This document shows, in pieces, positions 24,207-24,240 of a DNA stretch of 64,000 nucleotides; position 1 is the first letter of the stretch, and every line of letters starts with the position of its first letter. The notes under the pieces were generated by a model. It did not search any database. It saw only the letters and a program-made list of their open reading frames with translations, and was not told the DNA's origin. Made by a program: the position numbers and the translations under genes. The stretch is taken from NCBI RefSeq assembly GCF_055900595.2, contig NZ_CM148325.1. One strand, written 5' to 3'.

Positions 24207-24240
24207 GGCGTATATTACGCATTTTTTGCACGAGATGAAA
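24207..24240 (-). promoter_or_regulatory. fis operon (dusB-fis) promoter: -10 TAATAT with GC-rich discriminator
   Basis: Minus-strand TGCAAAAAATGCGTAATATACGCCGCCTTGCAG about 40 bp upstream of the dusB start; matches the recalled fis promoter sequence. Confidence 0.6.

What the first reader, a model, noticed from the sequence alone, without database searches (positions are those of the whole stretch)
24207..24220. Identical 14-mer GCGTAATATACGCC shared by rrn P2 and the fis promoter
The -10 hexamer plus GC-rich discriminator of rrn P2 (5347-5360, plus strand) recurs exactly on the minus strand upstream of dusB-fis. Both promoters are known to be growth-rate and stringently controlled; an identical core module 19 kb apart in one window is a neat illustration, and the repeat is long enough that it should not be mistaken for a mobile-element end.
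Basis: partly seen in the sequence, partly recalled or inferred. Interest (0 to 1): 0.3.

Follow-up and report, generated by a model that had tools for sequence, protein, structure and literature searches.

The report
Shared core of two growth-regulated promoters
The repeated 14 bases are the RNA-polymerase "-10 box" and its flanks in two well-studied E. coli promoters, ribosomal RNA promoter P2 and the fis promoter; the match is real and old but illustrates known biology rather than anything new.

Summary
Observation confirmed. GCGTAATATACGCC occurs exactly twice, at 5347-5360 (+) and 24207-24220 (-).

- **What the sites are.** The first is 3 nt of spacer, the -10 hexamer TAATAT and 5 nt of discriminator of rrnD P2. 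The second is positions -16 to -3 of the dusB-fis promoter. That region is identical to K-12, and the published start-site distance from prmA fits exactly.
- **Extent.** Both promoters have a -35-like hexamer in the same register. Identity runs 19/21 from -16 to +5, then falls to background.
- **Chance.** A 14-mer repeat alone is not rare here: the window has about 20 distinct inverted ones. An in-register match is rare: 0 of 54,587 pairs of promoter-like sites reach 14/14.
- **Refinements.**
  - Only the rrnD/H/E class of P2 carries the 14-mer; rrnA/B/C/G do not.
  - Both cores are old. The P2 14-mer reaches Providencia and Proteus, and the fis 14-mer reaches Aeromonas.
  - They evolve independently. 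Within one Proteus mirabilis genome, P2 keeps ...CGCC while fis P has ...CGCG.
- **Excluded.** It is not a mobile-element end or a recent duplication.

Already known biology; low interest.

The parts
5347..5360 (+). 14-mer copy 1: GCG (end of spacer) + TAATAT (-10) + ACGCC (start of discriminator) of rrnD P2
5328..5333 (+). rrnD P2 -35 hexamer TTGACT, 16-nt spacer to the -10
5350..5355 (+). rrnD P2 -10 hexamer TAATAT
5356..5363 (+). P2 discriminator ACGCCAC and predicted start C. The start is placed by analogy with rrnB P2, whose start lies 117 nt from the P1 start; it was not mapped here.
   Evidence: bioRxiv 10.1101/2020.02.17.953182 read; inference
5347..5367 (+). Extended block matching the fis promoter at 19 of 21 positions (GCGTAATATACGCC-A-CCT-C-GC)
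5220..5247 (+). rrnD P1 core (TTGTGC-16-TATAAT), followed by discriminator GCGCCTCC; context for P2
5540..11027 (+). rrnD-type rRNA operon body (16S, tRNA-Ile, tRNA-Ala, 23S, 5S, tRNA-Thr, 5S) transcribed from P1 and P2
24207..24220 (-). 14-mer copy 2: positions -16..-3 of the dusB-fis promoter (fis P)
24234..24239 (-). fis P -35-like hexamer TTCATC (3/6 to consensus), 16-nt spacer in the same register as P2. Read as TTTCAT, the spacer would be 17 nt.
24212..24217 (-). fis P -10 hexamer TAATAT
24204..24211 (-). fis P discriminator ACGCCGC (24211..24205) and start site C at 24204
   Evidence: combined with the 296-bp figure in PMC3865300
24200..24220 (-). Extended block matching rrnD P2 at 19 of 21 positions (-16..+5)
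22885..24172 (-). dusB (23207-24172) and fis (22885-23181), the operon driven by fis P

Best explanation
The 14-mer is the melting core of two separate sigma-70 promoters that share one kinetic design. It comprises the last three spacer bases, a -10 hexamer TAATAT and the first five bases of a GC-rich discriminator.

Copy 1 belongs to rrnD P2, the downstream promoter of the rRNA operon. Copy 2 belongs to fis P, the promoter of dusB-fis. In both, a C lies 7-8 nt downstream of the hexamer as the start nucleotide.

From established knowledge, not tested here: a non-consensus -10 followed by a GC-rich discriminator of the form nCGCC gives short-lived open complexes. Output then depends on ppGpp/DksA, on the concentration of the initiating NTP (CTP) and on negative supercoiling. 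That ties both rRNA and Fis synthesis to growth conditions.

The exact identity is a by-product of two independently and very strongly conserved promoter cores. It is not a mobile-element end, a recent duplication or a co-evolving unit. Whether the deep origin is convergence on an optimum, ancient common descent or partly luck cannot be resolved from 21 bp.
For: **Shown here**
- Positions and register of -35, -10 and +1 in both promoters.
- The fis region is identical to K-12, and the start site agrees with the published 296-bp distance.
- Similarity is limited to -16..+5 (19/21). The flanks are at background: 5/21, 7/19 and 3/20.
- All seven K-12 P1 promoters read TATAAT-GCGCC[A/T]CC, D/H/E P2 reads TAATAT-ACGCCACC and fis P reads TAATAT-ACGCCGCC. 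They share an nCGCCnCC discriminator.
- In E. coli, the 50-bp fis core is exact in 5,415 of 5,425 genomes. The D/H/E-type P2 core occurs at a median of 3 places per genome.
- fis P -17..+6 is invariant in 44 of 44 Enterobacteriaceae species loci that reach it.
- fis P is also exact in Erwinia, Klebsiella and Aeromonas caviae, where 24/24 nt are kept although the -35 region and UTR have diverged.
- The P2 14-mer is exact in Salmonella, Klebsiella, Kosakonia, Pseudenterobacter, Cronobacter, Franconibacter, Providencia and Proteus.
- Evolution is independent. Yersinia, Serratia, Xenorhabdus, Proteus and Morganella fis P read ...ACGCGCCC. Meanwhile P2 in Proteus (same genome), Providencia and Serratia keeps ...ACGCC[A/T]CC.
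- P2 -10 variants (TAGTAT in C. freundii and S. symbiotica, TATTAT in S. liquefaciens) have no counterpart in fis P.

**From the literature**
- The discriminator is the major determinant of fis growth-phase, stringent and supercoiling control (PMC3865300; PMC8422995).
- P2 is iNTP-sensitive and gives basal rRNA synthesis (PMC3113569; PMC4696680).
- CTP is the fis initiating nucleotide (title of Walker et al. 2004, cited).
Against: - No kinetic or regulatory property was measured here.
- The rrnD P2 start site is inferred by analogy with rrnB P2, not mapped.
- The primary mapping and mutagenesis papers (Walker 1999, Mallik 2004, Ninnemann 1992, Murray 2003) are not held in the library and could not be read.
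- Base-by-base conservation of the core over such distances is stronger than a generic '-10 plus GC-rich discriminator' would require. Some sequence-specific constraint is therefore unexplained.
- Only one or two P2 promoters per genome were sampled outside E. coli.
Confidence: 0.85

Rival explanations
1. Ancient common descent. The core of one promoter was copied from the other by duplication or gene conversion of about 20-25 bp, before the Enterobacterales radiated. Both copies have been frozen by selection since.
For: - 19/21 identity, with the same register of -35, -10 and start C.
- Both cores are old.
- An in-register 14/14 match is not seen among 54,587 pairs of promoter-like sites.
- In Escherichia, the 11 nt directly upstream in fis P (GTGCAAAAAAT) also occur in rrnD P1.
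Against: - Flanks beyond -16..+5 show only background identity.
- The 11-mer shared with P1 is not conserved outside Escherichia, Salmonella and Klebsiella in fis P, nor in rrnD P1 of other genera.
- There is no co-variation, so no ongoing conversion.
- 21 bp carry too little signal to separate descent from convergence.
- Aeromonas keeps the fis core but has no such P2 in the operon examined.
Confidence: 0.08
2. Shared binding site. The imperfect palindrome GCGTA-ATA-TACGC is recognised by a dimeric DNA-binding protein, or forms a hairpin in the melted strand, and this co-regulates rrn P2 and fis.
For: - The 13 nt conserved in every fis promoter examined coincide with the palindrome.
- The palindrome arms survive the P2 -10 variants TAGTAT and TATTAT.
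- The scan tool flags a small stem-loop on the antisense strand at both loci.
Against: - The rrnA/B/C/G class of P2 and one Proteus P2 class lack the right arm, yet are P2 promoters.
- The stem is only 5 bp with a 3-nt loop.
- The sequence is where RNA polymerase itself must bind and melt.
- No such factor appeared in the papers read.
Confidence: 0.03
3. Coincidence without meaning. Two promoters that need a -10 box and GC-rich neighbours happen to agree at the remaining positions.
For: - 14-mer repeats are common in the window, with about 20 distinct inverted ones.
- The finding was selected after the fact.
- Identity drops to 13/14 in Yersiniaceae and Morganellaceae.
Against: - No in-register 14/14 match among 54,587 pairs of promoter-like sites, and only one 13/14.
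- The agreement has persisted for the whole history of the order at 13-14 of 14 positions.
Confidence: 0.04
4. Terminal inverted repeats of a mobile or rearranged segment spanning 5347-24220.
For: The two copies are in inverted orientation, 18.9 kb apart.
Against: - The interval holds the rRNA operon, yhdWXYZ, acrEF, acrS, yhdJ, fis and dusB. No transposase ORF was listed (no family search was run on these ORFs).
- The same gene order is found across Enterobacteriaceae.
- Each copy sits at its orthologous promoter in genera where the two loci are not linked in this way.
- Identity ends after 21 bp.
Confidence: 0

Closest known systems
E. coli fis promoter (fis P, dusB-fis operon), as characterised by the Osuna, Kahmann and Muskhelishvili laboratories
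   Same: Same locus and same sequence. The 150 bp around the 14-mer are identical to K-12. The start site fits the published distance from prmA. The GC-rich discriminator is present.
   Different: Nothing differs; this is that promoter. The window's prmA-dusB intergenic region as a whole is only 95-99% identical to most E. coli genomes, but the core is invariant.
E. coli rrn P2 promoters, rrnD/rrnH/rrnE class
   Same: Identical from the -35 hexamer to beyond the start site: GGTTGACTCTGAAAGAGGAAAGCGTAATATACGCCACCTCGCGACAG.
   Different: None.
E. coli rrnB P2 (rrnA/B/C/G class), the P2 that has been studied biochemically
   Same: Same -35 (TTGACT), same 16-nt spacer ending in GCG, a C two bases after the hexamer and a C start.
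   Different: The -10 is TATTAT and the discriminator is GCACACC. Only 9 of the 14 positions match, so the exact repeat with fis P does not exist for these four operons.
rrn P1 promoters (e.g. rrnB P1, rrnD P1)
   Same: The discriminator nCGCC[A/T]CC directly after the -10 hexamer is shared with D/H/E P2 and fis P. They belong to the same class of short-lived open complexes regulated by ppGpp/DksA and iNTP (my own knowledge of the Gourse laboratory's work).
   Different: P1 has a consensus TATAAT -10 preceded by CCC rather than GCG, starts with A or G rather than C, and has UP elements and upstream Fis sites.

Membership tests
Sigma-70 promoter with GC-rich discriminator (stringently controlled, stable-RNA type) | -10 hexamer with A at position 2 and T at position 6, placed 6-8 nt upstream of the start site | tested here: met
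   TAATAT at 5350-5355 (+) and 24217..24212 (-). The fis start C at 24204 is 8 nt downstream (PMC3865300).
Sigma-70 promoter with GC-rich discriminator (stringently controlled, stable-RNA type) | -35 hexamer 16-18 nt upstream of the -10 | tested here: met
   P2 has TTGACT (5/6) with a 16-nt spacer. fis P has TTCATC (3/6) with a 16-nt spacer, too weak for the consensus scan to call.
Sigma-70 promoter with GC-rich discriminator (stringently controlled, stable-RNA type) | G+C-rich sequence between the -10 and +1 | tested here: met
   ACGCCAC (5/7 G+C) and ACGCCGC (6/7 G+C).
Sigma-70 promoter with GC-rich discriminator (stringently controlled, stable-RNA type) | Inhibition by ppGpp/DksA, short-lived open complex, dependence on initiating-NTP concentration | not testable with these tools
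   Literature only: PMC3865300 and PMC8422995 for fis P; PMC3113569 and PMC4696680 for rrn P2.
rrn P2 promoter | Second promoter about 110-120 nt downstream of P1 and about 200 nt upstream of mature 16S, followed by the boxA leader | tested here: met
   P1 -10 at 5242-5247, P2 -10 at 5350-5355, 16S starts at 5540, and GCTCTTTAACAA follows P2.
fis P (dusB-fis promoter) | Lies in the prmA-dusB intergenic region at the mapped start site of K-12 | tested here: met
   Identical to K-12 over 150 bp. Exactly 296 nt separate the prmA stop codon and the C at 24204, as published.
Terminal inverted repeats of a transposable element | Inverted repeats bounding a segment with a transposase, flanked by target-site duplications and variably present among relatives | tested here: not met
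   The interval carries conserved housekeeping genes in conserved order. Each copy is at its orthologous promoter in many genera.

The most novel reading that the evidence does not exclude
The 13-nt near-palindrome GCGTAATATACGC may be a specifically selected element rather than just any -10 plus GC-rich discriminator. It has been held base-for-base in rRNA P2 promoters across the Enterobacterales, and in the fis promoter since before the split from Aeromonadales. One possibility is that it sets a particular CTP-sensing or ppGpp-sensing kinetic optimum. Another is that it is read by an unrecognised factor. Either would couple Fis and basal rRNA synthesis through one sequence.
Probability: 0.08. 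Interest if true: 0.45.

Novelty: already known. Interest (0 to 1): 0.15.

Why it matters
It matters little beyond illustration. Both promoters are textbook cases, and the literature already groups fis P with stable-RNA promoters because of its discriminator.

The modest added value lies in three points:
- The exact match holds only for the rrnD/H/E class of P2.
- Both cores are conserved at single-base resolution over very long distances. In fis P, 24 of 24 nt are kept between E. coli and Aeromonas while the neighbouring promoter DNA diverged.
- The two cores do not co-vary.

Such conservation hints that the precise sequence, not only its G+C content, is under selection. Promoter swaps could test that.

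Tried and rejected
- **Primary papers.** The mapping and mutagenesis papers are not held. Walker 1999, Mallik 2004, Mallik 2006, Nasser 2002 and Ninnemann 1992 were tried. The -35 assignment and the CTP start therefore rest on secondary sources and my own recollection.
- **Sequence text search.** Searching for the sequence in papers gave nothing relevant.
- **Genome-contig scan.** I used the one scan on YhdW, midway between the two promoters, hoping to capture both in one locus. Nearly all 80 loci are draft contigs that stop at the rRNA operon. They gave fis P but only one P2.
- **Whole-genome count.** No tool holds a whole genome, and BLAST cannot report a 14-nt hit in these databases. K-12 has at least four copies (three P2 plus fis P). 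In all loci fetched, the 13-mer occurs only at fis P or P2.
- **Near match at 47652-47665.** This 2-mismatch site looked like a third stringent-type core, but it lies antisense inside yhdP. Rejected as chance.
- **Acinetobacter.** fis there has no dusB upstream and no such core, so it is not comparable.
- **Yersinia P2.** Not obtained. The contig with yhdW continues 16 kb past the locus, so an rRNA operon probably does not follow it there.
- **Metagenome and viral scans.** Not used. They would return unnamed, mostly E. coli-like hits.

Full report
**1. Observation**

GCGTAATATACGCC occurs exactly twice in the window, at 5347-5360 on the plus strand and 24207-24220 on the minus strand (sequence read). 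The tool's chance expectation of zero applies to this particular word.

As a repeat it is not unusual. The window contains 31 inverted and 134 direct 14-mer position pairs, about 20 distinct inverted repeats of 14 nt or more. The naive expectation is 7.6 per orientation. With up to three mismatches there are 11 matches against 5.4 expected. The best of these, at 47652, lies antisense inside a 1266-aa ORF and is chance.

**2. Context**

The window is Escherichia coli.
- Copy 1 lies upstream of an rRNA operon with 16S at 5540-7081, tRNA-Ile, tRNA-Ala, 23S, 5S, tRNA-Thr and a second 5S. This is the rrnD layout.
- Copy 2 lies between prmA (24501-25382, minus) and dusB (23207-24172, minus), which is followed by fis (22885-23181, minus).
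- The genes between the copies are yhdZYXW, acrFE, acrS and yhdJ.

**3. Anatomy**

At copy 1 the consensus scan finds TTGACT (5328-5333), a 16-nt spacer and TAATAT (5350-5355). P1 (TTGTGC-16-TATAAT, 5220-5247) lies about 108 nt upstream. The 14-mer is therefore GCG (end of spacer), the -10 hexamer, and ACGCC, the first five of seven discriminator bases. A C follows at the 7th and 8th positions after the hexamer. The start site itself is inferred by analogy with rrnB P2, whose start lies 117 nt from the P1 start (bioRxiv 10.1101/2020.02.17.953182). In K-12 rrnB that distance also falls on a C, by my arithmetic.

At copy 2 the 150 bp around the 14-mer are identical to K-12 MG1655. PMC3865300 states that 296 bp separate the dusB-fis start site from the prmA stop codon. 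Exactly 296 nt lie between the last base of the prmA stop (24501) and the C at 24204. So +1 is 24204, the -10 hexamer TAATAT is 24217..24212, the discriminator ACGCCGC is 24211..24205, and the 14-mer covers -16..-3. A weak -35-like hexamer TTCATC lies 16 nt upstream, in the same register as TTGACT in P2. It is too weak for the scan to call.

Aligned in register, the two promoters share 19 of 21 positions from -16 to +5. Outside that block they share 5/21, 7/19 and 3/20.

**4. Is the in-register match more than chance?**

I collected 331 promoter-like sites in the window and aligned all 54,587 pairs at the -10 hexamer. None shares 14/14 over the same 14 positions, and only one shares 13/14. The match is therefore not explained by both sites simply having a -10 box.

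**5. Other rrn promoters**

In K-12 the 14-mer is present in the P2 promoters of rrnD, rrnH and rrnE only. rrnA, B, C and G read GCGTATTATGCACACC.

All seven P1 promoters read TATAAT-GCGCC[A/T]CC. P1, the D/H/E class of P2 and fis P therefore share a discriminator of the form nCGCCnCC.

Across 5,426 complete E. coli genomes:
- the 50-bp fis core is exact in 5,415 of 5,425;
- the D/H/E-type P2 core is found at a median of three places per genome, range 1-6.

**6. Other species: fis promoter**

- In 44 of 44 Enterobacteriaceae species loci that reach the region, -17..+6 is invariant. Variation is confined to spacer positions about -24..-18 and to +7/+8.
- The core is also exact in Salmonella-like and other loci, in Klebsiella pneumoniae and in Erwinia tracheiphila.
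- It is exact in Aeromonas caviae too. There AAAAAATGCGTAATATACGCCGCC is kept 26 nt upstream of the dusB ATG, although the -35 region and leader have diverged.
- Xenorhabdus, Serratia marcescens, Yersinia enterocolitica, Proteus mirabilis and Morganella morganii read GCGTAATATACGCGCCC. This is a CG-to-GC swap at -3/-2, so 13 of the 14 positions are kept.

**7. Other species: P2**

- The 14-mer followed by ACCTCGC is exact in Salmonella enterica, Kosakonia cowanii, Pseudenterobacter timonensis, Cronobacter sakazakii, Franconibacter helveticus, Klebsiella pneumoniae and Providencia alcalifaciens.
- Proteus mirabilis H110 has two P2 types. One is unrelated in the core (GATGTAGAATGCACC). The other carries the exact 14-mer (AGCGTAATATACGCCTCCTCGC) at three places in the genome.
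- Variants of the -10 occur: TAGTAT in Citrobacter freundii rrnD and in Serratia symbiotica, and TATTAT in Serratia liquefaciens. In all three the discriminator stays ACGCCACC.
- The Aeromonas operon examined has no such P2.

**8. Co-variation test**

In one and the same genome (P. mirabilis H110), P2 reads ...TACGCC and fis P reads ...TACGCG. The discriminator change in fis P of Yersiniaceae and Morganellaceae is not mirrored in P2. The -10 changes in some P2 promoters are not mirrored in fis P. The two cores are each old and strongly conserved, but they evolve independently.

**9. Interpretation**

The literature read here attributes growth-phase, stringent (ppGpp/DksA) and supercoiling control of fis to the GC-rich discriminator (PMC3865300). 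It groups fis P with stable-RNA promoters (PMC8422995). rrn P2 promoters are iNTP-sensitive and provide basal rRNA synthesis (PMC3113569; PMC4696680). CTP as the fis initiating nucleotide is in the title of Walker et al. 2004.

The kinetic mechanism is short-lived open complexes caused by a non-optimal discriminator, in particular a C two bases after the hexamer. That rests on my knowledge of the Gourse laboratory's work and was not tested here.

The inverted orientation simply reflects the opposite transcription directions of rrnD and dusB-fis. A mobile-element origin is excluded by the conserved housekeeping content and order of the interval. It is also excluded by each copy sitting at its orthologous promoter in many genera.

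**10. What stays open**

Conservation at single-base resolution is more than a generic '-10 plus GC-rich' rule requires. In fis P, 24 of 24 nt are kept between E. coli and Aeromonas.

The conserved 13-mer is a small palindrome, GCGTA-ATA-TACGC. I rate a specific reader of that sequence as unlikely, because four of the seven E. coli P2 promoters lack the right arm. It was not excluded experimentally.

Convergence, ancient descent and luck cannot be separated with 21 bp.

**11. Verdict**

The biology is already known. Interest is low.

Noticed in passing
window 5222-5232 (+) and 24221-24231 (-): The 11 nt directly upstream of the 14-mer in fis P (GTGCAAAAAAT) also occur in rrnD P1, as part of its -35 hexamer and spacer. 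E. coli fis P -27..-3 therefore reads like an rrnD P1 piece joined to an rrnD P2 piece. Only the A-tract is conserved in other genera, in both promoters, so this is probably chance.
   Followed up: partly
window 5346-5360 and 24208-24220: The 14-mer contains the small palindrome GCGTA-ATA-TACGC. Because an A-rich spacer precedes it, the scan tool calls a terminator-like hairpin plus T-run on the antisense strand at both promoters. A functional terminator is unlikely, with a 5-6 bp stem.
   Followed up: partly
window 23900-24500: The prmA-dusB intergenic region is at least 99% identical to only 10 of 5,425 complete E. coli genomes and 95-99% identical to the rest. The 150 bp around fis P match an Escherichia whittamii contig (L011) at 100%. 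The window may come from an uncommon Escherichia lineage. The promoter core itself is invariant.
   Followed up: no
window 14386-15411 (-): yhdW is an intact 341-aa ORF here. From memory, it is annotated as a pseudogene in K-12.
   Followed up: no
PLSDB records NZ_OL790812.1, NZ_OL790811.1, CP125156.1, NZ_AP026896.1, NZ_CP134663.1, NZ_CP141089.1, NZ_OL790696.1: Records of 4-5.4 Mb labelled as plasmids are whole chromosomes of Proteus mirabilis, Klebsiella pneumoniae, Aeromonas caviae and E. coli. Each carries 7-10 rRNA operons and fis. They were useful here, but they are mislabelled in the collection.
   Followed up: partly
L118 and L116 (Aeromonas caviae NZ_AP026896.1, about 4,011,000 and 4,035,400): fis and an rRNA operon lie about 24 kb apart in Aeromonas, similar to the 19 kb in E. 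coli. The neighbourhood of fis and an rrn operon may be old.
   Followed up: no
cluster of the E. coli Fis protein: The 90%-identity cluster of the 98-aa Fis protein lists 327-aa Xenorhabdus DusB proteins as members. In the Xenorhabdus locus L107, dusB and fis are separate genes 7 nt apart. This looks like a clustering artefact.
   Followed up: no
window 7150-7344 versus PMC4696680: The operon with tRNA-Thr and a second 5S (rrnD type) has Ile and Ala spacer tRNAs. The text of PMC4696680 lists rrnD among the tRNA-Glu operons. The paper's text seems to have the operon lists mixed up.
   Followed up: no
L092, L095-L097 (Salmonella-like loci): The prmA-dusB gap is about 660 bp instead of about 330 bp. 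This agrees with the >300-bp Salmonella-specific insertion upstream of fis P reported in PMC3865300. The core promoter is unchanged.
   Followed up: partly
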